From NCBI RefSeq assembly GCF_023055435.1, contig NW_025964001.1:43276001-43340000 (forward strand): a stretch of 64,000 nt of DNA, given 5' to 3'. This document shows positions 1 to 64,000 of the stretch, one piece after another (the stretch's first letter is position 1; every line of letters starts with the position of its first letter). Source of the DNA: Haliotis rufescens (Eukaryota). The notes below the pieces were generated by a model that was not told where the DNA came from, did not search any database, and saw only the letters and a program-made list of their open reading frames with translations. The position numbers were made by a program, and so were the translations under genes.

Positions 1-2754
1 TTGAAGACTGGTATCCCTATACCTTCTGAGATGATGTTCACCAGTACAATACCTGCAAACAGTGATCCTGAAAACAACGGTCAACAATTTACTGCATGTA
101 CATGCGTTTGGGAACAGCAATCGCCTGATGAATAAAGGAACAAATATAAGATCAGCGTTTCGAAATGTTTCACCTCAATGTTGTTGCTGTTTACAGTCTC
201 TTTCTTTTATAACTAATCGGTGCACATTGTTTAACAAATGAACATAGAAAACATTTTGTTTACCCGAATTTTATAGAAAGAGTTGCAGCATCTTGTATAT
301 TATTATTGTTATCTCCTTGTATATATTGTACAGTTTGAGTTTCAGATTGCAGGGTTACTGTTATAGATATTCCAAGCTGCATTGTGAACGTAATCACGAT
401 CAATATGGCCTCCACATGGAGGCTATAAAAATCAGGGTAACATACAGTTGCACCTTAATTAATACCTTGTGTTTCGTCAGCTTAATTGTTAAATCTTATG
501 TCTTCCTTTCCATGCGAATGAATTACACTGCTGGACATTGATGGTTTGTATACAAGGAATTTTAATTTAAAAAAAAGAAAAGGTATCCAACATATTAGTG
601 ACCCAAATAATGCAATGTGTTTGTGACTTGTTACGAGTGATACGCTCGACTTTTTGTGTTCACTTTGTTATCATCACTATTTGATACTGATTGATAAACA
701 CACGTGTATGATATAGTTGGACTCGTACAATGGACCCTGATGATTATTGAGAGGGCTTTGTTGGTTTTATTTAAATTCTTAACTAACAGGACATTTGTTA
801 AATTGACAACTCTTAGAAATGTTGTAGAAAATGTGTTTGAAAAAGATAGCTACTGACTAGTATTTACATCATTTGAGTTAAGCGGTGATTTATGATATAG
901 ACGTAATAATAAAATGAGTGAGTGAGTGAGTGAGTATTGTTCTACGCCGCTTTTAGCAATATTCCAGCAATATCACGGCGGCGGACACCCGAAATGGGCT
1001 TCACACATTGTACCCATGTCGGGAATCGAACCCGGGTCTTCGGCGTGACGAGCGAACGCTTTAACCGCTAGGCTACCCGACCGCCCCTAATCATAAAATG
1101 AACCCTCATGATTATGGAAAGGGCTTCGTTGTTTTTTTGAAAAATGTGATTGCACTGCCCACTTTATTATCATTATAGGCCATTCAAAACATTACAGCTG
1201 TCCCACTCTTTGTCTTTGTTATGTCATATGCATTTGAATGTTGGTAGCATGGGATCCTCTCTTGCTATGTTTATACCAGTTATATAATAACGTTGATGAC
1301 AACACTTTTTTTTAAAGAACAAATGAATGCCAGAAGAAGGATATCTTTTGATGATGAGCTTGGCCATCAACAACTATCTGCATACTCACCCTGCATTTCA
1401 GCAGGGGCCATCCTTGACATGATAGCCCGCAGTGACGGAAACAAAGGGCCTGCAATAGCATTGGGCAAAACAACTGCAACAAACCATACTCTTTAAACAA
1501 ATGCAAAGTATAATTAATGTCAATATATACCTTATGTTCTGAAAATATATTGAATGATATTTCATCGACAAGATATCCTTTTATCAAATCCTCCTCAGAA
1601 GTATTACCATGAACTTATGTTATTTACTGCGATGGTGACTTACAAGAGAAGAGCAAGACGTCAGTGTTGGCCAGTCCGTGTAGGACATAGGCTCCCGCCT
1701 GTATGATGGATGTTATGATACATATTCCTGGATCGGAGGTGCACATATGGAGGAGTTTGATGACTGGAATCCCTAGAAATTGTCTTGTAAGGGACAATGC
1801 CATATTGAAATAGCCGATGAGCTCTGGGCCCCAACAGAAAGGCAGGTTTAGTTGGAAAAGATATTCTACAAAATACACACCACTCTGACTGAAATATAAT
1901 ATAAAATATGATGCAAGTGAGAGCAGGAAGAGGCTTCTCTTTGGTCCAAAATCTTTTGAAAAGTAGAATCCAAAGACATTTTTCACTGCTTTCACTGGAG
2001 TTGGGTATTGGGATCTTCTATCTGAGTTGATAGTTTCCGGGAGAAGAACAACGACAAGGACGAGAGACAGAAGCATGAGTAAGGCAGTAGTCACAGAGGG
2101 GTAGAGATAGCCTAGGTTTTTGATGAAGTATCCAGTAATGACCTGAGAAGCTGCAGCAGCCAGGTAGGTGGTGAAATCTATCACAGCGATCCATACTGTC
2201 CGTGAGTTCTTAGGTGGTGTGTTGTCAGCCGTGTAGGCATAACTAGCTAGAATCACACCATTGTATCCCCCTGAAAAACCTTGAAGTGCCTCACCAATGT
2301 ACAGGTATCTCACATCTAGATTCCAGTAAATAACAACTGTCGTCAACCAAAACTTCACAACCACTCCAGCTAAAGGTACTATGAAAAGGACCCGTCGACC
2401 AAGAAAATCAGAATATGCCCCTAGGAACATGCAGCTGATCACTGCTCCGGAGCTTCCAATAACTGTCAGTATTGTTTGACAGTTCGAAGTATTTTCTTGA
2501 ACCTTTTCCTGTAGCATATATCCTGGATCCGATTCATTGACGTAACACTGGGATGTTTGGTTAGGAGAGTTGACATGCCCTGTGCTGTTATTGAACTCCT
2601 CATCGGAGTACCTCTTGTATAGATATTGTGTTACCAGTGGATTGCGGATATTGACAGCCACTTGAAAAACAAGAAACACAACGTTAGCCTTGAGTAGATT
2701 TCCCAGTTTAGACTTGTCTTTATCCCTGTCTTCAAGAGGCGGTGCAGACTCCAT
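1..2754 (-). CDS. SLC46A-like: SLC46-family (PCFT/SLC46A3-like) MFS transporter, copy A, 3'-partial; exons 1644-2754, 1390-1473, <1-67
   Basis: Exon 1 has GAYSDFLGRR, ASYAYTAD, RTxxIAVID and LFQLNLPFCWGPELIGY motifs plus a glycosylated loop with a conserved Cys. Donor T|GTAAGT at 1643. Exon 2 (CAG|...G|GTGAGT) reads FVLPNAIAGPLFPSLRAIMSRMAPAEMQG. Exon 3 begins TTTTCAG|GA and reads GSLFAGIVLVNIISEGIG. Confidence 0.92.
915..1087 (-). mobile_element. tRNA-derived SINE family 1 (tRNA-Asp-like head, (ACTC)n tail)
   Basis: A box TAGCCTAGCGG, B box GGTTCGATTCC, (CACT)n tail, near-perfect TSD taat(a/c)ataaaatga. Homologous copies at 18.4, 34.1 and 37.3 kb. Confidence 0.85.
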
Positions 2755-4020: not shown

Positions 4021-4189
4021 ACAAACTAAATATGCCAATCTGCCGCTCTTCCAAGGATGAGGCCATGTTTAGGTTTTGTGAGCGAGTGCGTGAAATTGCG
4101 AGATTATGTCATCAACACACCACAGAAAGCGCTAAATTGAACGTCTGTGACATTTGACATTGGATGCAAGCTGATACTGTGCGTTTTGA

Positions 4190-27934: not shown

Positions 27935-28548
27935 GTACCTGTTCATGAAGACATCTCCTCGTGATTCACAATTTGCACGTGCAAAAACTTTTTTTACAAA
28001 GTATCCAGTACAAGCTTGGTGGGTGGTGAAATCTATCATAGCGATCCCTAATGTGTGTGAGATCTGGATGTGGATGGATGGATATTGACAGCAAAATGGA
28101 AAACCAAAAGCACTTCATTAGCCTTGAGCTTACCCATTCTTTTTTACAAAGTATCCAGTACTGGTCTGGGAAATTTGCACAACCTTGGTGGGTGGTGAAA
28201 TCTATCAAAGCGATCCCTAATGTGTGTGAGTTCAGACTTCTGGATGTGGATGGATAGATATTGACAGCAAAAGGGAAAACCAAAAGCACTACATTAGCCT
28301 TGAGGTTTCCCTATATTAGCAAACTTTCTTGAACGTTAATTTCGGGAACACCTGGTGTCGTTGTTTTTAATTTTCATTGATCCATTGCGAACACCTGGTG
28401 TCGTTTATATATTTTCAGTGATCCATTCTTAAAATTTGCATCGCTATTTTGCCTTTGACAGCCAATGGAATCTGTTTCGTCGGATAATTGAGACGAATTA
28501 TTCCCTGGCGTTGACGTTTTATATTTCTGGTAGCATTGTAGGCTCCAT
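27935..28548 (-). pseudogene. Scrambled SLC46 exon-1 relic (psi1)
   Basis: ATG GAG CCT ACA ATG CTA CCA GAA ATA TAA at 28548. GNLKANVVLLVFPFAVNIY is fused through a ~400-bp deletion to NSHTLGIALIDFTT, and this fused block is tandemly duplicated. Confidence 0.8.
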
Positions 28549-35058: not shown

Positions 35059-38000
35059 CTATGTCGTGTTTTCGGTGACAGCCTTGTCCTGTGAGATGAT
35101 GGGACCAGGTTTCCAGTCTGGTTCGTTGTTGACAACAACAGCAGAGGTTTTGGTGTCGACCACGCGACGAGATGTACACAGGAACACTCTGAAACACATG
35201 GATATGCATTTGTTATTCATATAATAGCTCTTTCCTTACATGATTAGTAGAATTGGATAGCTAATGAGATTGTATCTCAATCTTTCCATTCATTCTCCTG
35301 TCAACTTTAGGTACCAAATGTACATTTATTGCAAACGCCAATGCAACATTAACATGGGTATAAAATAGCGAAGTGTAAAAACAATGAAATATAGACATAA
35401 TGGTTTAAATAGAAGACAGGTTACATAAGTCTTTTTTGGGAACTAACACTATGATAGTGTGACGTAAAGCTTTAACTCACTCACTCACTCACTCACTCAC
35501 TCACTCACTCACACTATGATAGCTGCTGACAACAGTTGGAATCCCGCACAGACGAAAAAGGCGAAGCCACGCAGTATCTTCACAGTGGCATCATACATCT
35601 CGTTGAAAGCTGTTATGCCTATAGTTGATGAGATGATGTTCACAAGTCCAATACCGGCAAACAGTGATCCTGAAATCAATGTTCAACATAACATTACAAA
35701 CGATATTTAGGAACAGTACTCAACCGCCTATAAAACATGTTACAAAATATTTCACAGTGTCAATTGGCATCTTTTCCTCAAGTGTAAAGTTCCTTTTATT
35801 TTTATTCCTTTTAATTAAATGCTTTGTCAGTGAACAAGATGAACCAAATGAATAAAGACATCATCTCAATTATGCTATGGAAATATAATTCCAATATATT
35901 CTACATAGATAGTGGTCAGTGAGGTTTTGTTGTTTGTTGTTCAGCGACGCACTTGGCAAACCAAATATCCAGCAATGTGACAGCAGCTTGTAAATAATCG
36001 AACCTGGACCAGACAAACCAGTGATGTGCGTTGTCCCAAGTCATCAAGGTATGTGGCCACGCATTTAACCATCAAAATGAGTGTGACCACCCGTTCCAAT
36101 CAGTGGTCGCTTACAAGCTTAGACTGATGGGGACATATTCTAGCCAGAAATCCCCCGACTCGTTTGTTTGTTGTTTAACGCCACACTCGACATTATTCCA
36201 GTTATACCACAGTGGTCTACCGAATGTAGGTTAGACAATCAAGTGATTGATCCACTCATTTGAAATATGATGACATGCAATCATCAAATAAAGCGACAAA
36301 ACCCTTTCCACATCCAATAGAAAGCTCTGCTTAAAGCAGAGTCGATAGTACGATTCCGACCATGTCATAAGCATGTGTTTATGAATCACTATCAAATAGT
36401 GATGATTCGCGAAAAGGTTAGGGTTAGCGCATCCTGCCCCACCGGTGGAACCCTTCACAAACACATAGGTAGAGCATTTATAAATGTCGGTGTATACCTC
36501 AGGGTCAATAAAATGTTACACACTGAATAATCTGAATTCTTTCCAGTCTATTAAGTTGTTTTACGTGTCAAATGACATCACTATACTACTATGAAATGTA
36601 CACTAACAAATTGGAACGTATCTTACGTGGCATTTTAAAAGCTGAAGTATCAGTGTGTGTTTGTGTGATCGTTGTTTAACGCAGCACACAGCAATATTTC
36701 TGTTATATGACAGCGGTCTGGAAATAATCGAATCAGAACCTGACAACCAGGTGATTGACAACATAAATATCGATCCCCGTATCCAATAAGATACGATGAC
36801 ATGCAATCAACCAAGTCACCGAGCCTGACCCGCCTCGTAGGATAAGCATGGGTTGATGAGGATCTTTGTTCTAATCGATAATTCCCTTGGTTATTATCAA
36901 ATATATGTTACTATTAGTGAATTAACCTTTAAAGAAAGCATTCTTTCCAAATTCCCTCAGTGCATGTTACATATATTAAGTTTCAACATATCACTTTACT
37001 GCTCAGCTTCAATGCGGTATGTTAAGGAAACTCTTCACGATATATGTGGTTGAATTAATCTCATAGTCAGAATCAGTGAGAGCTTTAAATTTCTTGATTT
37101 CTAATTTATGTTTTGAAGTTTTTCTAACAGATAATGAAATAGCAACAACATTGCTTCTGTAGAGCATTTTCGGAATGGTTTACCATTTCCACTCGTTTGA
37201 ACTAGGTAAACTGTTCTTAATTCTTGTATTTATACATCTTGCTTAAATGAAAGTGTCCAAAGTATACTCTTGACTGTAAGGGCGGTGGGGTAGCCTAGTG
37301 GTTCGAAGACCTGGGTTCGATTCCCCACATGGGTACAATGTGTGAAGCCCATTTCTTGTGTTCCCTGCCGTGCTATTGTAGGAATATTGTTTAAAGCGGC
37401 GTAAAACCATACCCATTCACTCCCTGTACTGTAAATGGTGACTGACACAAGAACGCTGTCTGTGACTGAAATCCATGACTTCATCTTTGACATCTGTCTG
37501 TGTACTCACCCTGCATTTCAGCAGGAGCCATCCGCGACATGATAGCCCTCAGTGTCGGCAAGAAAGGGGCTGCAAGACCATTGGGCAAAACAACTACAAC
37601 AAAAAGACATCAAACAGCAAATAGCAACGGCTGATAATACTTTCTGATATATATAGCAACCATATAATCTTCCTTGACCATTGGGCAAAACAACAACTAC
37701 AAAAAGACATCAAAAAGTAAATAGCAAAGGCTGATAATATTTTCTCATATATAGCACAATATAATTTTCCTTGGGGCATGAATTCTCACCCTTTTGCCGG
37801 AAACATGCCAACTTCTTGGAAACATTTAAAACCTTGACGCAATTGTTCTGATGACTTACATGAGAAAAGCATGAAGTCAGTGGTGGCCAGGCCCTCAAGG
37901 ACAAAGGCTCCTGCCTGTATGACTCCTGTTATGATACATATTCCTGGGTCTGAGGTGCACAGATGGAGGAGTTTGATGACTGGAATCCCCAGTAATTGCA

Positions 38001-38967
38001 TGGTGAGGCAGAACGCCATATTAAAGTAGCCAATGAGCTCTGGTCCCCAACAGAAAGGCAGGTTTAGTTGGAAAAGATATTGCACAATGTACACCCCAGC
38101 CTGACCGAAAAAGGATATAAAATATGCTGCAAGTATAAGCCAGAAATAGATTCGCGTTGGTCCAAAATCTTTTGAAAAGTAGAATCCAAATACATTTTTC
38201 ACTGCTTTCATTGGAGTCGGGTATTGAGATCTTCGATCCGTGTGGATAGTTTCTGGGAGAAGAAGAACAACAAGGAGGAGAGAGAGAAGCATGAGTGAGG
38301 TTGTAGTTATCGACGGGTAGAGATAACCTAGGTCTTTCATGAAGTAACCAGTACTGACTGAGGAAGCTGCAGCAGCCAGGTAGGTGGTGAAATCTATCAC
38401 AGCGATCCATATTGTGCGAGAGTTCTTAGGTGGTGTGTTGTCAGCCGTGTAGGCATAACTAGCTAGAATCACACCATTGTATCCCCCTGAAATACCATCT
38501 AAGGCCTCGCCAATGTACAGGTATCTCAGATCGAGATTCCAGTAAATAACAGCTGTTAAAAACACATACCTTAGAACCTCTCCAATTAATGGTACTATAA
38601 AGAGGAATCGTCGACCAAGAAAATCAGAATATGCCCCTAGAAACAGACAGCTTATTACTGATAAGGAGCTTCCAATAACTGTGAGTATAGTTTGACAGTT
38701 TGATGTCCTTTCTTGAACTATTTCCTGTAACATATATCCTGGATCCGACTTGTTAACGTAACAGGTTTGATTTGGAGTGTTGGCAGACCCTGTGCTGTTA
38801 TCGAACACCTCATCGGAGTACCTCTTGTAAAGATATTGTGTTACCAGTGGATTACGGATATTGACAGCCAAATGGAAAACAAGAAACACAACGTTAGCCT
38901 TGAGTAGATTTCCAAGTGTTGACTTGTCTTTTTTAACTTTGTTTTCAAGTAGCGGTGTAGACTCCAT
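35059..38967 (-). CDS. SLC46A-like: SLC46-family transporter copy D (~492 aa); exons 37860-38967, 37510-37593, 35513-35669, 35059-35188
   Basis: Open joined frame. Exon 2 FVLPNGLAAPFLPTLRAIMSRMAPAEMQG (TAG acceptor); exon 4 VFLCTSRRVVDTK...DWKPGPIISQDKAVTENTT*. Confidence 0.9.
35475..35512 (-). repeat. GT(GAGT)9 microsatellite forming the exon-3 donor of copy D
   Basis: (ACTC)9AC on the plus strand abuts the exon-3 end at 35513. Confidence 0.9.
37279..37422 (+). mobile_element. SINE family 1, internally deleted
   Basis: GGGCGGTGGGGTAGCCTAGTGG...GGGTTCGATTCCC...GCGGCGTAAAACC. Confidence 0.8.
37576..37772 (-). repeat. ~100-bp tandem duplication spanning the exon-2 acceptor of copy D
   Basis: gaccattgggcaaaacaac...aaaaagacatcaaa...ctgataata...tcctt occurs at 37576 and again at 37676. 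Confidence 0.85.
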
Positions 38968-39843: not shown

Positions 39844-40594
39844 GAGTAACGAGGTTAAAATACATAACAGTCGGGCATCATGTATGGATTGTACTACTAT
39901 ATAAAACATGATGAGAATAAATGTTCTCTGGTACGTACATGTATATATAGAATACCAAAGGAGTTCTCGTGTAATACCAGTTTTATTTTATGAGCGAAAG
40001 TGAATCAGATACCGGAACTATTCACGAGTTTCATAAAATTGCTTTACACGGAAGTGAGTTTAGTATGTTATTTATTATTTGCCCCTTGTGACTTTTTAAA
40101 AATTTACTCTCGTTTGTGATGGGCAGACATCTATGCGATCAACAGCATAACCCTATTGAGTTTACCAGAATCAAGCTCCAAACACATCAAAAGTTGATAC
40201 GTATTAATTTAATACCATAAAACGGCCTCCCTTTAGAATTCAGGAGTCCGACCCAGAAAGCTTTGTAGTGCTAAAGTTATCGAAACTCATAGACTTAGGA
40301 CTGTCGTGCGCTTTGATAGCCTTGCAGATAGGGGCTCTGCACCACAAAGTTTACAATCACCTCAAAATATCCTATGACGTAGTTTGTTGAATTTTGTTGC
40401 ATGATCCACCTGCGAAACATGTAACGTCAGCTCAGCAAAGGGATTGCTGGGGTCATCGAGTGTGCATAAGCTCCTCTCAGAGATCTATCATCTCTACATG
40501 CAGTGTCATTGAATAACCCGAGGGATGTAGGGAGTTTTCAAAATTTGTCAGTGAAACATGTTCCTGCAGTACTTATGCTAATGCATACACTCAC

Positions 40595-43500
40595 ACCATG
40601 ATAACTGTAGACAACAAGTAACAGGCATCACATTCAATGAAAGCGAAGCCATTGAACATCCTCACGATGGCAGTATACATCCGGAAAGATCATTTTAGCT
40701 GATTTTTTTTTTTCATTTGATTTACAGATTGCGCTTTTATCAAGTAAGCATATTTCGTTGTCAAAAATTTGTATGATTCAAATGACACATAACTATTCAT
40801 AAACTATTCAGGAATTGCACTCACGAATCGATGTAGTGTCATGTCAGAGTCACGGCTCACAATTCAATAATAACAATGTCCAGTTCATTACATGAAATAC
40901 TTCTCTCTGTCTCTTTGACGTAATGTATCCTTGTGTCAGCAGTAAAAGAAAACAGTCCCATAGTTCAATAAGATGTGGAACTGTTTTCAAGATATCGTTT
41001 CAAGAATCACGAATTACTCTTTAGATAAACCAGGGTGAATTGGTAACAGAGTGTGGTTGTTTCATTCAAAATGGTTTCAGTTTCTTATCAACTGTACTAA
41101 GATGGAAGCAGTGTTGAGTATCAACATAAACTTTTGTTTAACGTAATTTTTGAAGCAGATTGTTGGTGCTCAAGTTATGTCAGAATGAAACTAAATCACT
41201 TCCTCCCCAAAAGCGATAAAATAGACTCTTCAAACGAAGTTCAAGAATTAGAAAAGTATTCGTAGCCTTAAACAACAAAAAGCCATGGCTTAAATGTGCG
41301 TTGTTCACAAAGGGACATAAATAAGATGAATTCTTCAGTTGAACAAGTTATGCCTGAGTTCACTTCATTTGAAAGTCATGGATATTATTACTCGGGCTTA
41401 CATTTACTCATGGCATAGAGAATGTGCACAAGGCAGATGCTGAAATATCATAACAAGATGAAACTTCTGAAGTGATAGAAATAGCACAGGGGTACTTGGA
41501 TAATGGTTCAACTGCATTTCAATAATAGATTGTATAGTTTGGTCAAAGGTGATAAAAAGCTTGACCTTAGTTGAGGTCAAAATCCAGTTGTAGAACAAAG
41601 GGATGACTTCAATGGAAATATGAAAAGCAACAAGTGGTATTTAAGGAGGTCATACCAAAGATGTTCAGAAATATAAGGAAGGGTATTCTGTAAAACAGTC
41701 AAAAGCATATGGAAAAATTTGGGGCTTGTGTTACACTGGTGATCAGTATGATATTTCTCATCGCACTGAAGGTAGGTTAGACAACACAGAAAACCAAAAA
41801 TCGCTGCTGGTAACGGTATTCGGAAACAACTGAAACGCGTTTAGATACCAGTATTTCAGTCTCCTTCAATTACAGTATACAGACTTCTTCAATTGTGACA
41901 GTATCATGTGAGGCCTTTAAAGTGACAACATGTGCTAATGTTTCTCCCCAGTACTGGAATTTAGAATAGGAACGTTCTGTTAAAACAACTTAGAAATAAA
42001 AGTTCACATATAAAAGTGGACTTAATCAACAATTGAGTGAGTGAGGTGGGTTTAACGTCGCTTTTAACATTATTCCAGTCATATCACGGCGTGTCCGCTT
42101 AATGTGAGAGGAAAGCCTGAAGTGATGCAGGTCTCGGACATTTACCACTTCGGTGAAACCCACGAGCACGGGTATGGTGCTGACAAACCTAAAAACATAA
42201 TCCAAATAGGTAGGTAAACCTGTTAGAATAGTAAATAGTGTAGATATTGGTGAATCTCCCAATTACTGTTTACTGTGACATACACAGTAAGAGCATACAG
42301 GAAATTGCTATTATAAGAAAAGATCAAACAAATAGCTGATACAAGTACTTCATCTTTCATAGGCATCAGTTACCGTGTCCTGTCTTGCATCGGTCTGGTA
42401 CTCACTCTGAACTTCAGCAGGAGCCAACCTCGACATGATAGCTCGCACTGCCGGCAACAGGGGAGCGACAATACCGCAGGGAAAAAACAACTGCAAACAA
42501 AATAAATGAGTTTATGGTATATGTGGCAAATATATGATTTTGTTTCCCTTTTCTTGAAAATCTTCAAACTAAAAGTTACTTAAAATTTTGATTAACGTGT
42601 TACAGCCTGGAGTGAATATGCATTGAAGTTGTCATCATGTTATTCTTTAAGATGTATCCATTCCTCCATTATAACAGTGCCTTCTCTACCTTATTCTTCA
42701 ACAGATAATGTCCATTATGACTAACCTGTTAAAGGCATGAAGTCAGTGTTGGCCAGGCCTTGTAGGACATAGGCTCCTGCCTGTATGATAGATGTTATGA
42801 TACATATTCATGTGTCTGAGGTATATAGATTCCTAAGAATTGCCTCGTAAGGGACAACGCCAAATTGTAGTAGCCGATGAGTTCAGACTCCAACAGAAGG
42901 ACAGGTTCAGTTGGAAAAGATATTCTATAATGGAAACACCATCTCCACTAAATATATTTCAAAATATGGTGCATTTGAGAACCAGAAAAGGATCGCTTTC
43001 GTCCGCAATCTTTCGAAAAGTAGCATCCAAAGCCATTTTTACCGCTTTTACTGGTTTTGGGTTTCGACATCTTCGATCCGTGATGATACTTTTTTGGAGA
43101 AGACAAACGACAATGGGTGGAGGGATAAGCATGTAGCAGTGACGGCGGGGTAGAGATAACCCAGATTCCTAATGAAATATCCAATACTGGCTGAAGAAGC
43201 TGCAGCAGCTAGGTGGGTGGTGAAGTCTATCAGCACAATGCCTTTTGTGCAGGAGTTCTGGGTGGTGTATTGTCAGCCGTGTAGACATAACTAGCCATCA
43301 TCACACCATCGTACCGTCCTGATAAACCATTTATGACTTCTCCTATATTGAAGCATCTCAGGCCTTGTTTTCAGCAAATAATGTCATCTTCATATACATG
43401 TATTTCAGGAACTCATCGATTAAAGGATCCATAAAAAGACATTTTCGACCAAGAAAATCAGAATATGATCCAAGAAACATACATCTAGAAACGGGCTTGA

Positions 43501-43781
43501 TGTAGCTGTTAGTTAAGTCCGAATGTTTTATGTCCTGTCTTGTACCTGTTCCCGTAATATATATCCTGGATCCGACTCATTAACATAACACTTTAGGATA
43601 TGGACTGTGATGTCACTGAACACCTCCTCAGCGTACCTCTTGATAAGATATTGCGTTAATAATGGATCCTGGATATTGACAGAAAAATGGAAAATAAGGA
43701 ACACGACGTTAGCCTTGAATAAATTCCCCAGTTTAGACTTCCTTCTTTGTCTTTGTTTTCTGGTAACAATGTGGTCGCCGT
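40595..43781 (-). pseudogene. SLC46 pseudogene psi2 (B-like lineage); exon 1 ~42726-43781, exon 2 42406-42490, exon 3 remnant 40595-~40680
   Basis: Start codon changed to ACG, in-frame TAA after QVQDRT, several frameshifts in exon 1, an 85-bp (+1) exon 2, and the 5' half of exon 3 lost (remnant MYTAIVRMFNGFAFIECDACYLLSTVIMV). Confidence 0.9.
42034..42203 (-). mobile_element. SINE family 2, 3' half
   Basis: Matches the 3' half of 52105-52389. Confidence 0.75.
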
Positions 43782-44690: not shown

Positions 44691-47315
44691 TCACATTTCA
44701 GTGCTCTGTGCTAGGTTGCTTTGGGAAGTTGGTTGACGCCATTCCGTGTCTTGTATTGTCACAGTGTCATCGTGTTCAATACGTCTGTTATGCTTATATG
44801 TCAAACAAGCAAATAACCTGAAAGAAAAGACAAAACTAATATATTAATCTCAGTATTCAGGAGTCTGTCATACCACATTGGAGTCTTATTTCGCAACATA
44901 CACATTTATGTTTAGCGTCGCTTTGAACATTATATCAGTGATATCACTGTGTGGTATCTTAATATGGGCTTCATGACCTTCGTGACCAGGTCATGGACGT
45001 TTTAACAGTAAGCACGATTATGGTACTAACCAAGGATCATAATCGCGGCGAATCTGAGATTGGATTACATGATCATCGGATCCTGGCATGGCAAATGGAC
45101 GGTATTATTCAAAGTGAACTATAGAAAACTGGGCAACCACGCTATTTTCTAACGCAAATAAAAACAACAATTGGGTAACATACTCACACCAAGAGCATAA
45201 AGGCAACCACATGTGTTCCAGCGAAGACAAGGAAGATAAAGCCTCGCATGAAGTTCACAGTGGCCTCGTAGATGTAAGCAAACGAAGGGATGAACATCAG
45301 CCCCCCCACCTTATCAGCGAGGGTCAGACTCGTAAAGAGAGATCCTGAAATACACTTTTGTTCATTCAAGATCCACTTTGGGATCTTCCTGCCTATTTCT
45401 ATGTTCAAACACAAAAATACTTCTCTTTCTGTAAACACCAACGCACGACATAACCTTGACATCATCATATAACCCACACTCCGAGAAATAATGTTGGAAA
45501 TAACTGTATAATAAGTGTTTATAAATATAATTGTATTAAATTATTGTGTATATTATATATTGTTATGTACTTGTTGCAGAAGTGTTATAGAGTTTATACA
45601 TTATTGATGACATCAAATAGAAAAGTACTGTTTATATATCGCAGCATTTAAATGACAATACATCTATAGGTGGTACATGACTAAATTTGTTGTATGGAAC
45701 CATTCATTAACTCTGCATCCCCCGATCTACGTCCCAGTTGCAGACTTGGTGTGGAAGGAAAACTTGCAAAAGGCACCCTATGCAAATTTAAGCAATGATG
45801 TGTGCTGAATGTGTTGGATGTACACTGCCATATAACATATCATCAGGGTCTGGCAGTGACATAGAATTTTCACGAACCTTCTCTCCTGGTACGTACTAAA
45901 TGACCGCAGTTGACTCACGAATCTCCTCGGTAATGCATCCTCCAATGACAGTATTCAGGATAGAAAATGTTGAACGCAGCACATACCTTGACTGTCTTTC
46001 GGGGCCATTCTGGACATGATTGCTCTGATGACAGGTACGGCAGCAAAAGAGAGAGCTCCCGCCATTGCATCTGAAATATAAAAAGGTTAATTCAAATAGC
46101 GAAGTTAAGAAAAAAATGAAAAAGTTTTTAAAAAGCATGGCGTCTTCTTTTATCCGTCTTAAACATTTGAAAATGTGAAATATGTTATATCTTACATCCA
46201 TACATCATCCAGTCTGTTGTTGCAAAGCCATGGAGAAGGTCCGCGACTATGAAGGTAAAGGCACTGAAGACACCAATGACCTCGTCTCCTATGCAGTAGT
46301 GCAGGAGCTTGATCAGCGGCACACCTAAGAGCTGCTTGGCCATTGTTGATGCCATAGTGAAGTAGCCTATCCTTTCCGGCGTCCAGCAGAACGGCAGGTT
46401 CATCATGAATAACGTGTTTATGTTGATTACCGCATTAGCACTGATTTGGGAGAAGAAGTAGCACATGAGACCCAACCAGAACAGGCTCCGTACCCGACAG
46501 GTGTTGTCAAACAGGTACAACCCTACCACGTTTCTTATCCCCTGAGTCAGGTTCACCTTTGATTTGTTGGTCTTTTTGAGGGAATGCTTACTTTCCCGTA
46601 TGAAAAAGACGACAACAAGAATGAGCACCCACATGATGAGAGCAGACACGAGAGATGGGTAGAAATACCCCATATCCTGTATGAAGTATCCTGTGGCAGC
46701 ACTGGTACCTGCATAAGCAATGCTGCTCGTTGTGTCTATGACTGCTATAGCTAATGTCCGAGACTTACGGGGTGGTGTGTTGTCTGCGGCATAAGCATAA
46801 CTAGCCAGGAGTATACCGCTGTTGGTACTACCCAGTCCACACAGAACTTCCCCGATGTAGTACCAGTTTAGATCCAGCTCCCAATGAATGATGGCAGTTA
46901 GCATGGCGCTCCTCACCATGTCACCAATGGCTGGCAAAATGAACACGACCTTCCTGCCGAAATAATCAGAATACGATCCAAGAACTAGAGAACCGACTAA
47001 TGCTGCGGCTGTATTGACGAGGGAAAAGTACATCTGTTGGCTTGTTGTGGCTTTCTGGGCCATTTCCTGAAGAATGTATCCTTCGGATGTTTTGTTGCTG
47101 TAGCAGGTCACGTTGGCTGGGCTGACACTGTCCCCTGAGTAGTTGCCGAAGACTTCCAACGACAACCTCTTATAGAGGTACTGATCGAGTGTCGGGGCAT
47201 GAAAGGCTGACGCTACGTGGTACAGAACTGCTACAATGTTTCCCATCACCAAGTTCCTGATATTAAGGAGAGATTCCCCCTCCTTGGGTTTTTGTAGGAG
47301 TGGTTTCTTCTCCAT
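44691..47315 (-). CDS. SLC46A-like: SLC46-family transporter copy E (~495 aa); exons 46196-47315, 45987-46070, 45188-45344, 44691-44817
   Basis: Canonical splice sites. GSYSDYFGRK and NLPFCWTPERIGY motifs; exon 2 YAMAGALSFAAVPVIRAIMSRMAPKDSQG; exon 4 LFACLTYKHNRR...QSTEM*. Confidence 0.92.
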
Positions 47316-52600: not shown

Positions 52601-52780
52601 ATATGGGGAAATAATAAAATAGTCAACAACGCTGCATCCAGAATGTGATACATAAGTAAAATTGCCTATGAAACCTGATTTAAATCTTCCATTAACTATA
52701 TGGAAACCAAGTATCTTACACATATCTAATAATTCTAAACCATAGTTGGTTATGCCTTTATCTAGAGATTGGGTTTTAGT
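49700..52780 (-). mobile_element. Decayed CR1/L2-group LINE ORF2 (endonuclease + RT)
   Basis: IVNGRF..FTYVSHSGCSVVDYF, ESDHLPI, PWFDIEC, GVRQG, LLVADDIVMF and KTYVISFRNGG motifs with many stops. Confidence 0.85.
52105..52389 (+). mobile_element. SINE family 2, full length and young
   Basis: A box TGGCCCAGTCG, B box GGTTCGAATCC, (ACTC)n tail, 12-bp TSD tcaaacattcct. Confidence 0.9.
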
Positions 52781-53743
52781 GTGATATATGATGGAACTGC
52801 TGCTTCAGATATTCCGCCCATAAACACATTGTGCTGTTCTATAGTAAGTGACTTGGAACTATTTTTATGTAGCAGTGGCAGCTGTATTAGTAGTATAGAT
52901 CGCTGCTGGACCAGAAAATCCAGTGATTGACATCATGCGCATCGATCCAAGCAAATGGGATACGATATAATGCGTCAACCAAGACAGCAAGATCCCGAGT
53001 AAGTTAATGTCGTATTGACCCTCATAATAGTTTCTTACCTAAAGGGCGATAAGGCGCTAACGCGATAATGCGATAACGCGAAATCATTCAAAATGTCTCT
53101 TTGTCTTGCCTTAGTTAATTTTATCATTGTCTGCTTGATTTGTTATGCCAACAAAGCGACAGTTCCATATCTATTATTCCATCTATTACTGCACACTTTA
53201 GGAGAAACCCCTTCAAGAAAGTATAGGGAAACAGCTTGAACCTGTAAATTACTGATTTGTAATGAATCTAATAAAACGTAAAACACATAAACTCAATCTG
53301 AACTGTGGGGCAAAAGAAAGTATACACCCATGTTTGATGGTGTCTAAAATTGATAACCCCCAAGAAATGGTTATTAGATGGTGATGTATTTCATTCGGGT
53401 GTCAGAGTTGTGTTTTGCATGTTCAGTGTTTCGGCAACTGTTTTCAGCCAAGTAACGTTCGTGATGTTTTGTTGGAAACTAAATTGTAAATCTGCAGCAT
53501 GTAAGGCTAAATCACGACACAGTGCCTTTTGTTCTCAACACTGAAAGGCCACAGGCTCTTGGTACATGTTTTACGCTGAATATGCGGAGAGGCTGTACAC
53601 TCAAATGAATTTTTAATTGACATGGCATGATAAATATACATGTACGTTTCGAACAGTATTTGTATTGATTGATTTCATCAAAGAAACACATTTATCTGTT
53701 TTTGGATGAACGAAATCAGAGTCACTGTCTTTCTGTAACAACG

Positions 53744-56700
53744 TTAGGGCAGAGAATCCTGGGAAGAATACGAGTAGGAACATATATAATGATCGCTGCT
53801 CCTGATTGGCTGTGATATTAGATCGCCACGTGACTGCACGTGTGAACCGCTCCTCTCAAACGACGCCGACAGAGCCGGTGACGAATATGCCCGAGAGCCA
53901 CTGTCCTGTATCGTCACTTCTTCTTCATTATATATGCCGTGTTCAGCACCACGGGACCGACATGCGAACACTCTGAAATCATAATGGACAAACACATGAC
54001 GAGTACGCTTGATGAGGCAAATGAAGCAGGATCACATTCCCAGTCTGCCTAATCAGTTTTATTATCAAGATCAATTTATTAATTAGCGATTACCCAAGTC
54101 GTACATGTATGTACATAAAAAACAATATCAACATACTTAATATGTGCGACAAAACTCTTTCCATATTCATAAGAAATAGCTTCTGAAGGCAGAGTCGATT
54201 GTACGAATCTAGCTATATATGATGAGCATGGGTTTTGGAATAAACTATCAAATAGTGATAATACAGCAGAGTCCATTGTACAGAACGATACGGTATATAG
54301 ACAGAGTTTATACTGTACTGAAATTGCTGTCATTATGCTGCAAAATGATTCATGAACACATACATGCATGTACTTATAAAATGTTTGAAATCGTAGAATG
54401 GACAGCAGGGATTTCTAATGATTATGGAAAGGGTTTTGTCGCTTATACTTATGTGGAGAGGATTATTATGTTCCTCATCTGTATTTCTGTGGTATATTAC
54501 TCTCAAGGTTTAGTTCATCATAGCTTGTGCAATAGTCTTTTTTAATATTGGGTTCAGGTGCTGGGCAGTGCTTTGGTGTATACGCACATGAACACAGTGA
54601 CAGAGAGCAGTTGTAGACCAGCCATGACGAGATAGACACTCCCTCGCATCACCTCAACAGTGGCCTGGTACAGGGAGTTGAACACCGGGGTTCCCAACAG
54701 GGTACACACTGCCTGAACCAGCATCAGACTCGTGAAGAGAGAACCTGACAGAAGATTAAACCAAGAGTGAACCTGTCAGATGATATTACCAAGAGAGGAC
54801 CTGACAGAAGATATAACCAAGAGTGAACCTGATTGAAGATATAACCAAGAGAGAACCTGACAAAAGATATAACCCAGAGAGAACATGACAGAAGATATAA
54901 CAAAGAGTGAACCTGACAGAATATATAACCAAGAGAGAACCTGACAGAAGATATAACCAAGAGAGAACCCGACAGAAGATATAACCAAGAGTGAACCTGA
55001 CAGAAGATATAACCAAGAGAGAACCTGACAGAAGATTTAACCAAGATAGAAGCTGTCCTATGATGTAACCATTCAAGAAGTGAGAACCTGTCACAATTTA
55101 TAATCATTTATGGGTATTGCTTTTGGCAAGATAAAGCTGACGTATTGAAAACGGTATCCTTAGGGGTCATATAGGGATAAAGATGAAAATATGAAAGGTT
55201 AGGAAGGTTTTATTTTCAGTGCTTACAAACAAACATGGAGTTGCCCTTGTCTATCGGCGTTCGAGTCAGAATTAACCATCAGGGATCTGGACTGTTGTAC
55301 AGTTATGACACGTGAAGAGAGAACTCATCACAAGATATGAACATGTAAGCACTCTCTGTACCAGTATGAGAAACGTGAAGAGAGAACCTGTCACAAGATA
55401 TGACCATGTAAGCACTCTCCGTACCAGCATCAGAACCGTGAAGAGAGAACTCATCACAAGATATGACCATGTAAGCACTCTCTGTACCAGTATCAGAAAC
55501 GTGAAGAGAGAACCTGTCACAAGACATGAACATGTAAGCACTCTCCGTACCAGCATCAGAACCGTGAAGAGAGAACTCATCACAAGATATGACCATGTAA
55601 GCACTCTCTGTACCAGTATCAGAAACGTGAAGAGAGAACCTGTCACAAGACATGACCATGTAACACTCTCCGTACCAGCATCAGACACGTGAAGAGAGAA
55701 CCTGTCACAAGACATGAACATGTAAGCACTCTCTGTATCAGCATCAGACACGTGAAGAGAGAACCTGTCACAAGACATGACCATGTAAGCACTCTCCGTA
55801 TCAGCATCAGGCAGGTGAAGGGAGAACCTGTCACAAGACATGACCATGTAAGCACTCTCCGTACCAGCATCAGACACGTGAAGAGAGAACCTGTCACGAG
55901 ATATGACCATGTAAGCACTCTTTGTACCAGCATCAGACACGTGAAGAGAGAACCTCTCACAAGATATGACCATGTAAGCACTATTTGTACCAGCATCAGA
56001 CACGTGAAGAGAGAACCTGTCACAAGATATGACCATGTAAGCACTCTTTGTACCAGCATCATACACGTGAAGAGAGAACCTGTCACAAGATATGACCATG
56101 TAAGCACTCTCTGTATCAGCATCAGACACGTGAAGAGAGAACCTGTCACAAGACAAAAAACCATAAAAGCACAAATCAAACAAATAATTGAATCAAACAA
56201 TCTATTTGCTGCTAAGTATCAGTGACATTTACATCAAATAAAAACAACAATTTCCTATAATTTTTCATATATGTCCAAGTACATGTACGTTTAGTGAAAG
56301 TTGATTTGCGCCGAAGTCAGCAATATCCTTGCTTTATCACTGCGGCATGTGAATAGCTTAATAATCAAGTAGTTTATGCCAACAATGCGATCCACGTGAC
56401 CTTAGTCAGGGTCAACAAGGTTACTGTAACAACTGAATCCCTACTTAAGAAGGTTCTTCTGATAAGCATTGGATACTGGGTATGGTATTTGTATATGCTG
56501 ATGCCTCTTAACAATACCATATCTTTAATAGAATTCGAAGATAGACATGTTGTATTTCAGTACTTTTAATGATTAATACCTTGTCTGTCTTTTGGTGACA
56601 TTCTGGACATGATCGCTCGAACCGTCGGGGAAATCGCAAACGTGAAAGCCTCCAGTCCTGCAACTGATTTAAATAATTCTTTATCACAACCACATCAACA

Positions 56701-58163
56701 TTATGTTACCAGTATGAGGTTTTCCTTATTAAAGTATGTATTTTAGGTCAGTGAGTGAATGTTGGTTTTATGTCAAAGTCAGCGATATCTTAGCCATTAC
56801 ACGTCGGCCTGGTGAATCGAAAATAAATCTGGGATACTAGTGTTTGATAGCAGGAGCAGCGATTAAACACACGCTCACATATTATGATCACATGAGCATC
56901 ATATAAGACGACTCTAGTGATCTACTTTGCCCCAAATCAAGTTGGATTTACATTTGGTGAATTTGTTTTAAAAGATTGTTCATCCATTATCATGTGATGA
57001 TGTTTCTCCTGCATCTTACCCCCATACATCATCCAGTCTGTGTACGCCAGCCCACGGAGAGTATACGCTGCCACCATCACGAAAGAGCTGGCTATTCCAA
57101 TGATCTCATCACTGATACAGTGTTGGAGGAACTTAATGATCGGCACACCAAACACCTGCTTCAGCGCAGTCCCCGCCATTGTATAATACCCAATCGTTTC
57201 AGGAGTCCAGCAGAATGGTTTGTTCAGCACATACAGCGTTCCAGTGTTGGATACACCACTCGAAGGCAAGATGAAGAACAGGTACGTCACCAAAGCTAGT
57301 ATAAACAGGAGACGGGTCTGTTTGGTGTCATCAAATAGATAAAATCCAACAATTCTTTTGATGCCTTTGCGGGGACCAAAACACTCTTTCTGTTGCACTT
57401 CTGATCGCGGCAGAGTCTCCGTGACACACAGAAGAACAAACACGACCGCCAGTAACATCAATATGACCGAGGTGAACGAAGGGTAGAGGAATCCAGTTCG
57501 CTGGATAAAGAATCCACTTGCCGTTTGGGAAGCAGCATTTGCAAGACTCAGAGTTGTTTCAAGAACGGCTATTGCTATAGTCCTGGTTTTCTTGGGAGGA
57601 GTGTTGTCGGCGGTGTAGGCATAACTCGCCAGGAGGAAGGAGTAGTCGTAACCCGTTATACCGGAGATTATCTCCCCAATGAAGTAGTAGTTGAAGTCCA
57701 GTTCCCAGTAGATGATGGCGGTCAGTGTACAGTATCTCACTATACAACCCGTCATGGCCACAACAAACATCACTTTCCGACCAATAAAATCAGAATAGGC
57801 TCCAACGAATACGATATTCAGAACAACAAATATACCCCGGGCCACTGTGAAATACATTTGTTTCCTTGATGTCATTTGCTGAGCCTTCTCCTGAAGAAGG
57901 TAATGTTTATCTGACTTGTTTACATAGCAGGTTTGATTAACAGAGACGTGGTGAGTTTCATTTCCAAACACCTTTTCTGTCATCCGTCTGTATAAATACT
58001 GGTCCATTGTAGGATTATGGAAATTAGTTGCTATGAAATATAGACATACCACGACGTTTCCTATGACGAGATTCCGAATGTTAAGGCTTTGACCTCCAGG
58101 CTTGGGCAGCAATGGGAACGTCTCCGTGCCCCGGCCACGGGTCTGCTTGTCATATACACTCAT
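53744..58163 (-). CDS. SLC46A-like: SLC46-family transporter copy F (~537 aa); exons 57020-58163, 56580-56663, 54588-54744, 53744-53972
   Basis: Exon 2 VAGLEAFTFAISPTVRAIMSRMSPKDRQG; 157-bp exon 3 GSLFTSLMLVQAVCTLLGTPVFNSLYQATVEVMRGSVYLVMAG...; exon 4 VFACRSRGAEHG...QDSLP*. All introns are GT/AG and in the paralog phases. Confidence 0.88.
54737..55044 (-). repeat. 28-bp minisatellite x11, each unit a copy of the exon-3 3' splice site of copy F
   Basis: Minus-strand unit TTGGTTATATCTTCTGTCAG|GTTCTCTC; the last unit is the acceptor of the intact exon 3. Confidence 0.92.
55307..56153 (-). repeat. 63-bp minisatellite x~14, each unit an acceptor plus the first ~38 nt of exon 3 of copy F
   Basis: Minus-strand unit ...CTTACATGGTCATATCTTGTGACAG|GTTCTCTCTTCACGTGTCTGATGCTGGTACAGAGAGTG. 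It translates GSLFTCLMLVQRV versus exon-3 GSLFTSLMLVQAV. One 1-bp deletion lies near 55663. Confidence 0.92.
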
Positions 58164-58524
58164 GTTAAAGGTTGTGTGGGTGGGTGTACGTTAGCCCGGG
58201 CCCCACTGAAGATGAGGTCGCAAGTACATGCAACGACGATGAACACCCACGTCATCACCGTATACAGCAACTTAACACACAAGGTATAGAGTACGTCGTC
58301 CAAGTGGCTAGGCTGTGTTCAAGTAAAAGGTGTATAGAGCGTTATGCTGTGTGTGTACTTTGATTTACAGATAACTGATAACCCCGATGTGCTGATCATA
58401 TCTGTAAACATCCACAATGATATACATATATTGCTATAGTCCTAGTTTTCTTGGGAGGAGCGTTGTTAGCAGTGTAAGCATAGATACGTATATCAATAAA
58501 AAAATCAAATTAACATATTAACCT

Positions 58525-61320: not shown

Positions 61321-64000
61321 CTACTCGGCTGTTTTAATAAGCGGTCCATCCTCATTGCCATACGCCGACTGAACATGTACGTGTATGCTAGCCTGGGTGA
61401 TCTCTGTCACCTCCTGGCCTGCCACCGACCGCGCATGCTCGTGCATTGTTGGATCTCCGGTTATGTCTGTCTGTGTCCCTTTGTGCACTGTGACCACGCG
61501 CTGAACATGTGGAACACCTGGTTGAACCTGTTGAACATCGCGATCGCGCGAAGCCTGCGGAACATCGCCGTTTTGTCTGATCGGTTTTGACACGAATATA
61601 TAGATCCTGAAACAAAGAATAGGCGTGATAATTGCATCCTTCTATGATAACCCACGTGGAAAAGATTTCAGTGATAATACGTTCAGTTTACTATTACTAT
61701 ATTTACTATTATATATAGGTCTTTACGAGTAGGTCTTCGGTAAACCCATGCATGCCGTAAAATGTGACTATGCTTGTCGTAAAAGGCGACTAACGGGATC
61801 GGGTGGTCTGGCTCGCTGACTTGTTGCATGTCATCGATGTTGCGTGGATCAATGCTCATGATATTAAACACTGGACTGTCTGGTCCAGACTCGATTATTT
61901 ATATGACCGCCGTCATATAGCTGGAATTAATGCTGAGTGCGGCGTTAAACAACAAACCAACCAACCAACTTTATGTTCCGCACTGTATGTAAAATGATCA
62001 TTAATGGAACCTAAAACATTCATTCACTGGGGACAGTTTCTCTGTGAGTATGTGTTGTGCTCTAATTAAGTAAATGTTTAATGTGATAATCTCTCCTGAA
62101 CAATGATACATACCTAAACCGGGCCCTGCGTTTGAATTTACTTATTCACTTCTCGGTTACAAGTTTACAATCAGGATAGGGGCACAATGGACCTACGTGT
62201 ATTTCAACTAGATTCATAGCAAGGGAGTTTGACACTTTAGTCCATGCTCGTGCAGATCTATATTGTTTGTTTGTTGTTTTGAAATATTCCAGCAGTATGA
62301 CGGCGGCCTGTGAAGTCTGGACCAGACAATCCAGTGATTGATATTATGAGCGACTTTCCACGCCGTCGGGGTTTGATGACACGAAAATCAACCACATCAC
62401 TGTGCCTGACAATCCGATCCATTGTGCGGCCTCTTATGGTCAGCATAGTTTACTGGCGATCTATTCCAACCCGGAATTGCCACGGATAGGAGTATTATTA
62501 AAACTGCGCAGCAATCCTCGATCAATCATTAGCTGACAAAATTGATTTAAGACGGTCATGGATTGTGAATATAGAGGAGAAGAAGTAAATTAAATACTTA
62601 CACAAGAACAATAGCACCGACAACATGTGTGCCTCCCAAGAAGATGAAGACCATCCCTCTCCACACCACCACCGTGTCCTGGTAGATGCTGCTGAAGATA
62701 GGAGTCCCCACCAGCGAGCACATCGTCTCCACCACTGCTATACTGGCGAAGAGGGAACCTGCAACAATACAACAGCAATGTACATAGATGTGTATTCTTT
62801 AAAACTACGTTTGTTTACACTGCAGTCAGCAATATTCCAGCTCTAACATGGTGGCAATTGTTAGGCAGACCAGTGACAGAAGGAATAAACAGTTGTGAGG
62901 GTACGATGACTTGCAATCCGCAAAAGACACCAAGTCTGACAAGCCGATCCAATTTAGATACCTCTTAATAAAAACAAATTAAGCAATAAAGTGCTGAGGA
63001 CCTATCCCATTCGTGTCCCCGTGTGGTAATTATGTCTTTAGCATGTATTTAGGCTGAACAACAGAAAGCCACTTATTTTGTCTGCGGAGAGTCATCCGTT
63101 GTATCACAGGCTGTGAGTGAAGGTATTTCATTGACATGATATTCTTATGATATATTCAGTACATCCTCGATAGACACATTCTGACCTTGTTTGTTAGCTG
63201 GAGCCAACCGGGACAAGATGGAGCGAACAATTGGGAACAACGTGGCAGCAGGGGTTTTGATGCTGGCAACTGGAAGAACAATAATATGAAGAGTGTTATA
63301 AATCACACATAACTTAATAAATCTAAGAAAGGAACATTTAAATGTGTCATAGCCCAAATGCTATATCAATATTAAAAGCCAATGTTGATATTTGAATGAA
63401 TATTTTCAGAAATAATGAACCGTCATTTATGCTATTACGAGACAAATGACTCTTTTCTTTATTTTTCAGCACATGTGATCGAAAACTTAAATGTCATCCA
63501 TAATTTATTAAGTACCAAAAGGGAAAACGGATTATATTTCAATTCGTTACCATCACAAATTCCCGGAAATGTAAAATAGTCGATCAAATTCACTATCTAT
63601 TACCTCCGTACATCATCCAGTCTGTGCTTGCAATAGACTGTAGGCTGTCTGCTACACCTATCGCCAGAGAACCAATCACTCCTATCACCTCATCGATACA
63701 GCAACACTGTAACAGTCGCGTCAACGGGACACCGATCACCTGTTGTGCCACAGAGCTTATTGTACTATAGTAACCTATTTTCTCAGGGGTCCAGCACAAT
63801 GGAAGGTTCAGTTTGAATAGTGTTTCAATATTAGACGCCCCCACGCCTGGCAAGGCAGTGAAAACGAATATCAAGATAGCTAATATGAAACATATTCGCT
63901 TCCGTTTACTGCCCTCCAAAATATAAAATCCGAACACTCGACGACATCCTTCAAGAGGTGTAATCCAACTGTTCTTCGGTCTTTTAATCCCCCTTCTCTC
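61321..64000 (-). CDS. SLC46A-like: SLC46-family transporter copy G, 5'-partial; exons 63604->64000, 63186-63269, 62602-62758, 61321-61606
   Basis: LFKLNLPLCWTPEKIGYY motif; exon 2 VASIKTPAATLFPIVRSILSRLAPANKQG; exon 3 GSLFASIAVVETMCSLVGTPIFSSIYQDT...; long exon-4 tail ending EDGPLIKTAE*. Confidence 0.9.
61725..61968 (+). mobile_element. SINE family 3
   Basis: Matches 9044-9313; (AACC)n tail. Further degenerate copies at ~19860-20310, 35925-36150, 36665-36870 and 62263-62480. Confidence 0.8.

What the first reader, a model, noticed from the sequence alone, without database searches (positions are those of the whole stretch)
1..64000. Birth-and-death tandem array of at least 9 SLC46 transporter loci with diversified cavities and sorting signals
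Seen: seven intact paralogs and two pseudogenes, all co-oriented with identical exon phases, running off both window edges. A-D and the pseudogenes are closely related, while E, F and G are older. Established: humans have three SLC46 genes. SLC46A1 carries folate, SLC46A2/A3 are endolysosomal and implicated in cGAMP and muropeptide import, and Drosophila CG8046 supports tracheal-cytotoxin sensing. Inference: this is a lineage-specific repertoire of endolysosomal exporters, possibly diversified for microbial ligands or dietary/algal metabolites rather than folate.
Basis: partly seen in the sequence, partly recalled or inferred. Interest (0 to 1): 0.7.

Follow-up and report, generated by a model that had tools for sequence, protein, structure and literature searches.

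The report
Abalone SLC46 transporter gene array
This abalone stretch holds seven intact copies and two broken remnants of a known transporter gene family (SLC46), part of an array of about 30 copies; none has the folate-gripping residue pair of the vertebrate folate carrier, and they likely move small digestion products out of lysosomes, but such expansions also occur in other molluscs and what each copy carries is untested.

Summary
Seven minus-strand SLC46-family genes (A-G) share 84- and 157-nt exons and phases 1/1/2. One full decayed copy and one 340-bp relic lie among them. The window is a slice of a 29-locus array of mixed strands; the genome gave 45 matches. A-D are 74-83% identical, E-G 38-48%, and orthologs exist in three other abalones, so these are not haplotigs. 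All three introns of F are spliced in 4 of 4 contig sets. None of 37 models has PCFT's Arg156/Asp164 pair, but bird SLC46A3 lacks it too. All seven carry Glu at the Arg156 site, which is rare outside abalone. An N-terminal dileucine-type motif is present in 5 of 7 and altered in A and C. Codon tests found no positive selection (omega about 0.3; cavity sites only slightly higher). SLC46 expansion also occurs in other molluscs (published for Alviniconcha; this scan noted a mussel array earlier). Verdict: a RefSeq-annotated birth-and-death array, likely of endolysosomal proton-coupled exporters of non-folate solutes. The immune-ligand idea is unsupported here.

The parts
1..2754 (-). Gene A: exon 1 2754-1644, exon 2 1473-1390, exon 3 starts at 67 and runs off the left edge; 493 aa in the genome; N-terminal motif reads ESAPPL instead of a dileucine
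   Evidence: matches RefSeq protein P0005
13847..17173 (-). Gene B: exons 17173-16066, 15817-15734, 15136-14980, 13925-13847; 475 aa; N-terminal ESTPLV
   Evidence: matches P0008; orthologs P0009 and P0012
19122..24805 (-). Gene C: exons 24805-23695, 20960-20877, 19644-19488, 19251-19122; 493 aa; Asn replaces the gate Arg384, new Arg in TM2, N-terminal ESSLLP
   Evidence: 97% ortholog P0004 has Ser at that site
27970..28310 (-). Relic (pseudogene 1): two tandem copies of an internally deleted exon-1 fragment, 76-91% to A-D
35059..38967 (-). Gene D: exons 38967-37860, 37593-37510, 35669-35513, 35188-35059; 492 aa; N-terminal ESTPLL
   Evidence: identical to P0001; model pLDDT 80.8, best fold match 7bc6
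39942..43770 (-). Pseudogene 2: decayed duplicate of the B lineage (exon 1 about 43765-42726 with frameshifts and stops, exon 2 about 42490-42404, exon-3 remnant 40683-40594, B-like intron 3)
44691..47315 (-). Gene E: exons 47315-46196, 46070-45987, 45344-45188, 44817-44691; 495 aa; N-terminal EKKPLL
   Evidence: 99% ortholog P0039 has the same tail
53744..58163 (-). Gene F: exons 58163-57020, 56663-56580, 54744-54588, 53972-53744; 537 aa; N-terminal ETFPLL; all three introns seen spliced
   Evidence: matches P0019
54763..56153 (-). Intron 2 of F: 63-bp and 28-bp tandem arrays holding 25 copies of the exon-3 acceptor context, skipped in the spliced contigs
61321..64000 (-). Gene G: exon 1 from off the right edge to 63604, then 63269-63186, 62758-62602, 61606-61321; 551 aa; N-terminal ETEPLL and a C-terminal EDGPLI

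Best explanation
This is a real birth-and-death tandem array of SLC46-family 12-helix MFS transporter genes, whose products likely sit in endosome or lysosome membranes and likely use the proton gradient to export small non-folate organic products of intracellular digestion. Shown: the copies, their shared exon structure, the pseudogenes, splicing of F, purifying selection (omega about 0.2-0.33), mosaic exchange between copies, the PCFT-like predicted fold, retention of the MFS loop D117/R121, retention of the TM5 acid and TM10 Arg gate pair (6 of 7; C lost the Arg), and absence of Arg156/Asp164. Inferred: an N-terminal [DE]xxxL[LIV] motif sends most copies to endolysosomes, while A and C may reach the cell surface. 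Proton coupling would run through the TM5 acid (E193 site) and possibly the abalone-typical Glu at the Arg156 site, with basic residues in TM1, TM2 or TM8 taking over anion binding. Paralogs would have overlapping, polyspecific substrate ranges (SLC46A3-like conjugates or algal and microbial breakdown products) arising from duplication, gene conversion and partly relaxed constraint rather than an arms race.
For: Family and fold: only significant PDB sequence hit is chicken PCFT, E 4.8e-42; Foldseek top hit 7bc6, E 1.6e-20, TMt 0.89. The site mapping is validated by shark PCFT P0145 showing the expected residue at 13 of 13 sites. R156: 0 of 37 H. rufescens models; D164: 0 of 37; D117 and R121: 37 of 37; R384: 32 of 37. 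The dileucine-type motif is in 22 of 37 models and 78 of 135 distant homologs. [quoted passage not shown] Selection is purifying, with no positively selected class. Recombination test p=0.004, and the pseudogene left of the window has an A-like exon 1 with D-like exons 2-3.
Against: No transport, localisation or tissue data were obtained. The motif sits 1 residue from the initiator Met in several copies and was not tested. Human SLC46A3 uses a C-terminal tyrosine motif instead, and 15 of 37 models lack the N-terminal motif. In the FastTree the mollusc radiation is separate from both vertebrate SLC46A1 and SLC46A3, so transferring substrate from SLC46A3 is by analogy only. The cavity site list comes from PCFT literature and was no more conserved than other TM sites even among bird SLC46A3 orthologs (7 of 24 vs 94 of 271 variable), so it discriminates poorly. 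The role of Glu154 is speculation; no coordinates were available.
Confidence: 0.55

Rival explanations
1. The copies are mostly redundant: dosage and drift in a duplication-prone, repeat-rich region, with little functional difference among the close paralogs A-D.
For: No positive selection in 4 of 4 sets. Cavity-to-other-TM difference ratios are similar for ortholog pairs (0.193 vs 0.164) and paralog pairs (0.235 vs 0.188). There are several pseudogenes and fragments and gene conversion.
Against: B, D, E, F and G lineages are kept as orthologs in H. rubra and/or H. asinina or H. cracherodii. Omega is about 0.3 at dS up to 0.57. Charged cavity residues differ between paralogs and some differences are shared across species, such as TM2 Arg in C/P0004 and F/P0020.
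Confidence: 0.2
2. An immune repertoire: paralogs import muropeptides or cyclic dinucleotides from endosomes to cytosolic sensors, as Drosophila CG8046 and mammalian SLC46A2/A3 do.
For: Family precedent (PMC11509177, passages). Acidic plus basic cavity residues could fit zwitterionic peptides. TM7 is the most variable helix in the A-D clade.
Against: No positive selection, which ligand arms races often leave (power is limited with 4-8 sequences). No infection or haemocyte data were obtained. Muropeptide diversity is small relative to 30-50 copies (own knowledge).
Confidence: 0.13
3. Lysosomal copper or metal handling, relevant in an animal that uses haemocyanin (recalled).
For: Mouse Slc46a3 and C. 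elegans slcr-46.1 mutants mis-handle copper. TM1 His32/His38 with nearby Asp/Glu occur in B, C, E and F.
Against: Direct tests of human SLC46A3 showed no copper inhibition or accumulation (PMC9896951). One ion does not explain dozens of paralogs.
Confidence: 0.05
4. They are folate carriers that bind folate through rearranged residues.
For: No gene with the PCFT signature was found in G000 with shark PCFT as query, so some paralog may cover folate uptake. Several copies keep acids at both the E193 and E407 sites.
Against: Glu sits at the gamma-carboxylate-binding Arg156 site in all seven. E407 is Asn in A-D. H289 and Y323 are absent (roles from PMC7612623 and PMC8978580).
Confidence: 0.05
5. 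The copies are mis-assembled haplotypes.
For: The closest pairs reach 93-96% nucleotide identity (A/up1; second-cluster block).
Against: Window paralogs are at most 83% identical as proteins. Shared blocks between array genes were at most about 3.5 kb in the part of the output seen (middle cut). One-to-one orthologs exist in other abalone species.
Confidence: 0.01

Closest known systems
RefSeq 'solute carrier family 46 member 3-like' / 'PCFT-like' genes of Haliotis rufescens, H. cracherodii, H. rubra and H. asinina
   Same: D is identical to P0001; A, B and F match P0005, P0008 and P0019; orthologs are 80-99% identical.
   Different: They are annotated by best hit only. No paper on the array was found in 5 targeted searches; a sixth found the Alviniconcha report.
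Vertebrate SLC46A1 (PCFT; PDB 7bc6/7bc7)
   Same: Fold, lumenal loop sequons and Cys pair, D117/R121, TM5-acid/TM10-Arg gate; the 84- and 157-nt exons match the human gene (recalled; the c.1166 boundary appears in a reference title).
   Different: No R156-D164 salt bridge, H289, Y323 or N350; Glu at 156; about 25-30% identity; N-terminal dileucine; dozens of copies.
[quoted passage not shown]
   Same: Also lacks R156/D164 and keeps the gate acid and Arg (bird P0161); probable lysosomal location.
   Different: Sorts by a C-terminal YxxPhi, which is absent from the 20 abalone tails scanned; it does not group with the mollusc radiation.
SLC46 expansions in other lophotrochozoans
   Same: Multiple paralogs without the PCFT signature; near-consecutive accessions on one contig in Patella and Lingula hint at tandem arrays.
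   Different: The abalone clade containing A-G has its own radiation (22 H. rufescens models) and Glu at site 156 in 14 of 22, against 2 of 130 other rows.
Drosophila CG8046 and mammalian SLC46A2 (muropeptide and cGAMP import)
   Same: Same family; late-endosomal location reported for SLC46A2.

Membership tests
SLC46 family (MFS) | 12-TM MFS fold closest to PCFT | tested here: met
   Pfam MFS_1 above cut-off in 3 of 4 exon-1 products scanned; model of D, Foldseek top hit 7bc6, E 1.6e-20
SLC46 family (MFS) | Sequence homology to PCFT above other MFS; TM2-3 GxxSDxxGRR motif; glycosylated lumenal loop with Cys pair | tested here: met
   phmmer E 4.8e-42; D117/R121 in 37 of 37; 3-4 sequons and both Cys in 7 of 7
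SLC46 family (MFS) | Proton-coupled transport | not testable with these tools
   TM5 acid kept in 7 of 7 and TM10 Arg in 6 of 7; activity not assayed
SLC46A1 / PCFT | TM4 Arg156-Asp164 salt bridge | tested here: not met
   0 of 37 models have either residue; mapping validated with shark PCFT
SLC46A1 / PCFT | His289, Tyr323 and Glu407 folate contacts | tested here: not met
   H289 0 of 7, Y323 0 of 7, acid at 407 only in E and G
SLC46A1 / PCFT | Orthology to vertebrate SLC46A1 | tested here: not met
   P0145 falls outside the 140-row clade (support 100) holding A-G in a midpoint-rooted FastTree; no formal clade test was run
SLC46A3 | Orthology to vertebrate SLC46A3 | tested here: inconclusive
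   Bird P0161 is outside the mollusc clade but on a long branch, FastTree only
SLC46A3 | C-terminal tyrosine lysosomal motif | tested here: not met
   No YxxPhi in 20 of 20 tails scanned; N-terminal dileucine-type motif instead
SLC46A2/CG8046-type muropeptide importer | Muropeptide- or cGAMP-dependent signalling | not testable with these tools
   Needs cell assays
Birth-and-death multigene array | Tandem paralogs of mixed age, pseudogenes, trans-species orthologs, purifying selection | tested here: met
Positively selected (arms-race) repertoire | Site class with omega > 1 | tested here: not met
   M2a/M1a, M8/M7 and M8/M8a all non-significant (one set; 4 of 4 sets); few sequences, limited power

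The most novel reading that the evidence does not exclude
The abalone-specific clade rewired the SLC46 pocket by putting Glu where PCFT has its folate-binding Arg and moving basic residues among TM1, TM2 and TM8. This would give a panel of about 20 carriers, each tuned to different seaweed or microbial metabolites, with one-residue changes in the dileucine motif switching sister copies (up1 versus A) between lysosome and cell surface.
Probability: 0.15. Interest if true: 0.6.

Novelty: new member of a known kind. Interest (0 to 1): 0.3.

Why it matters
SLC46 substrates are disputed even in mammals (folate, steroid conjugates, muropeptides, cGAMP, copper). A natural panel of about 37 intact variants with swapped pocket charges, and near-identical pairs that differ in a sorting motif, is a handy resource for mapping specificity and for abalone nutrition. 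As a genomic pattern it is an ordinary invertebrate transporter expansion that is already annotated and paralleled in other molluscs.

Tried and rejected
Positive selection: own codon-model code (F3x4, branch lengths from M0 rescaled). No omega>1 class was found in A-D clade sets of 6 and 8 sequences, G/H/I/J or N/O/P/Q. Cavity versus other TM omega: 0.46/0.35 (p=0.24), 0.43/0.30 (p=0.041), 0.23/0.22, 0.39/0.26; one of four is nominally significant and does not survive correction. Variable-site Fisher tests were significant in 2 of 10 sets. Cavity sites evolved faster in the 36-row deep set (p=0.007) but not in the 16-row A-D clade (p=0.16); the deep TM7 alignment is uncertain. The RefSeq isoform P0018, which uses the 63-bp repeat as last exon, had no supporting joint in 4 contig sets; contigs drop rare forms, so this is not disproof. 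Run search: no RNA holder listed as on record; runs are guessed RNA and carry no tissue labels, so expression level and tissue were not assessed. The first lay was swamped by repeats and showed no intron joints among the 15 listed of 233, though contig pieces stop at the C and D exon-4 acceptors and the D exon-1 donor. A true SLC46A1 ortholog was searched for with shark PCFT and none with R156/D164 was seen; 5 further loci were not fetched. The careful IQ-TREE run did not finish; the quick tree was used. No exon 3 was found for loci Y and c2h, exon 4 is uncertain for several distant paralogs, and C223:43.600-43.655 and 43.675-43.710 Mb were not fetched. The primary PCFT structure paper and the CG8046 paper were not held. 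HIV-protease hits are a spurious 30-residue match. No tRNA genes were found. No supplements were read.
Full report
What is there. Six-frame translation and tblastn show seven large minus-strand exon-1 frames and matching small exons. Splice-site modelling gives four-exon, stop-free genes A-G of 475-551 aa, each with an 84-nt exon 2 and a 157-nt exon 3 and intron phases 1/1/2. Exon 1 of D is 100% identical to RefSeq protein P0001, labelled SLC46A3-like from Haliotis rufescens. A and G are cut by the window edges but complete in G000. Between D and E lies a decayed duplicate of the B lineage (15 indels in exon 1, shared introns). Between C and D lies a 340-bp relic of exon 1. All three introns of F are bridged by contigs in 4 of 4 runs laid, at exactly the predicted sites (the runs are guessed RNA).

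Extent. A genome search with exon 1 of E gave 45 matches: 29 at C223:43.24-43.75 Mb (21 minus, 8 plus), 8 at C223:5.47-5.56 Mb, 4 at 57.6-59.7 Mb and 4 on other contigs, three of them intronless. A search with shark PCFT added about five more loci. I built 37 stop-free models covering exons 1-3 or whole intronless frames.

Not haplotypes. A-D are 74-83% identical and E-G 38-48%. C, E and the second-cluster gene c2a have 97-99% orthologs in H. cracherodii; B, D, F and G lineages have orthologs in H. rubra and/or H. asinina. Young pairs exist (up1/A dS 0.058; G/H 0.089). A recombination test gave p=0.004, and the pseudogene left of the window is a mosaic of A-like exon 1 and D-like exons 2-3. 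This is birth-and-death with exchange between copies.

Family and pocket. Chicken PCFT is the only significant PDB sequence hit and the best fold match for the model of D (pLDDT 80.8). I mapped PCFT residues taken from PMC7612623 (passages and section 5) and PMC8978580 (passages); shark PCFT shows the expected residue at 13 of 13 mapped sites. None of 37 models has Arg156 or Asp164. All seven window genes have Glu at the Arg156 site, as do 14 of 22 members of their clade but only 2 of 130 other rows. The TM5 acid is kept in 7 of 7 and the TM10 gate Arg in 6 of 7; C has Asn and its H. cracherodii ortholog Ser, and both have a new Arg in TM2. Basic and acidic residues in TM1, TM2, TM7, TM8 and TM11 differ between paralogs. 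Bird SLC46A3 also lacks Arg156/Asp164, so the pair looks like an SLC46A1 speciality and its absence is not an abalone novelty.

Sorting. An N-terminal [DE]xxxL[LIV] motif occurs in B, D, E, F and G, in 22 of 37 models and in 78 of 135 distant homologs, so it is ancestral. A reads ESAPPL while its 96% sister up1 reads ESAPLL; C reads ESSLLP, as does its ortholog. Two proteins of H. rubra and H. asinina lost the motif separately. No C-terminal YxxPhi was seen in 20 tails. That the motif directs endolysosomal sorting is established knowledge (recalled); it was not tested here.

Selection. Overall omega is 0.20-0.33 in four paralog sets, and no positively selected class was found. Twenty-four literature-defined cavity sites have slightly higher omega (0.43-0.54 vs 0.30-0.35 in the A-D sets), nominally significant in one of four sets. 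The same sites are no more conserved than other TM sites among 15 bird SLC46A3 orthologs.

Breadth. A profile search found 1504 clusters (50% identity) at E<=1e-30. In a 192-row FastTree, A-G lie in a 35-row clade (support 97) of abalone-like sequences only; its neighbours include Lottia, Patella, Batillaria, Littorina and Biomphalaria proteins, and older array members group with Patella, Gigantopelta and Batillaria (I named 30 of the 150 hits). Vertebrate SLC46A1 and SLC46A3 fall outside the mollusc radiation. Searches found no paper on the abalone array; subscription journals are not covered.

How it most likely works. By analogy with human SLC46A3 (PMC9896951, passages) and C. elegans SLCR-46.1 (PMC13216265, passages), the proteins likely sit in endolysosomes with the glycosylated, disulfide-tied loop in the lumen. 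Lumenal protons would protonate the TM5 acid (and perhaps Glu154), break the TM5-TM10 gate and release a bound organic solute to the cytosol. Molluscs digest food intracellularly in the digestive gland (recalled), which makes export of diverse algal and microbial breakdown products the simplest use for many overlapping carriers (0.55). Rivals are redundancy (0.2), immune import of muropeptides or cGAMP (0.13; precedent in PMC11509177, passages), copper (0.05), folate (0.05) and mis-assembly (0.01).

Verdict. The array is real, larger than reported and already annotated gene by gene. It is a new member of a known kind. The features worth an experiment are the Arg-to-Glu pocket reversal, the loss of the gate Arg in C and the up1/A sorting-motif contrast. 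Interest 0.3.

Noticed in passing
window 54763-56153 (intron 2 of gene F): Two tandem arrays (63-bp x13.5 and 28-bp x11.5) are built from the exon-3 splice acceptor and exon start: 25 near-copies, 13 with an exact AG-GTTCTCTCTT. Contigs of 4 runs skip them all and use the last, true acceptor; RefSeq isoform P0018 uses the 63-bp array as an open last exon.
   Followed up: partly
G000 C605:43207169-43208665, C501:509926-511398, C57:35032210-35033694 (L040, L048, L050): Three intronless, full-length SLC46 genes. The C605 and C501 genes nest among intron-bearing paralogs and have close homologs (97% and 80%), so they are likely functional retrocopies.
   Followed up: partly
G000 C223:5.47-5.56 Mb (L029-L039): A second SLC46 cluster 38 Mb away, with a three-gene block duplicated at 88-96% and one A-D-clade member; c2c, c2d, c2f and c2g have 130-140 aa N-terminal extensions.
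   Followed up: partly
G000 C223:57.57-59.67 Mb (L051-L054): A third group of SLC46-like genes with an extra intron in exon 1; their exon 3 is the closest match (45-51%) to shark PCFT, but they lack R156/D164.
   Followed up: partly
window 58429-58482: A 54-nt copy of part of F exon 1 (89% identity) just upstream of F.
   Followed up: no
window 26799-27233; 6689-6985; 52484-52804: Decayed transposable elements: a DDE_3 (Tc1/mariner-type) fragment, an RVT_1 fragment of a LINE and a weak endonuclease fragment; many SINE-like repeats starting with (TGAG)n.
   Followed up: partly
G000 C223:43435552-43436188 and 43449236-43449591 (L010, L011): Further broken fragments resembling paralog R sit between O, P and Q.
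   Followed up: no
gene G tail, window 61321-61606: G, H and I have long His/Gln/Val-rich cytosolic tails (82-94 aa); only G has a C-terminal EDGPLI dileucine-type motif.
   Followed up: no
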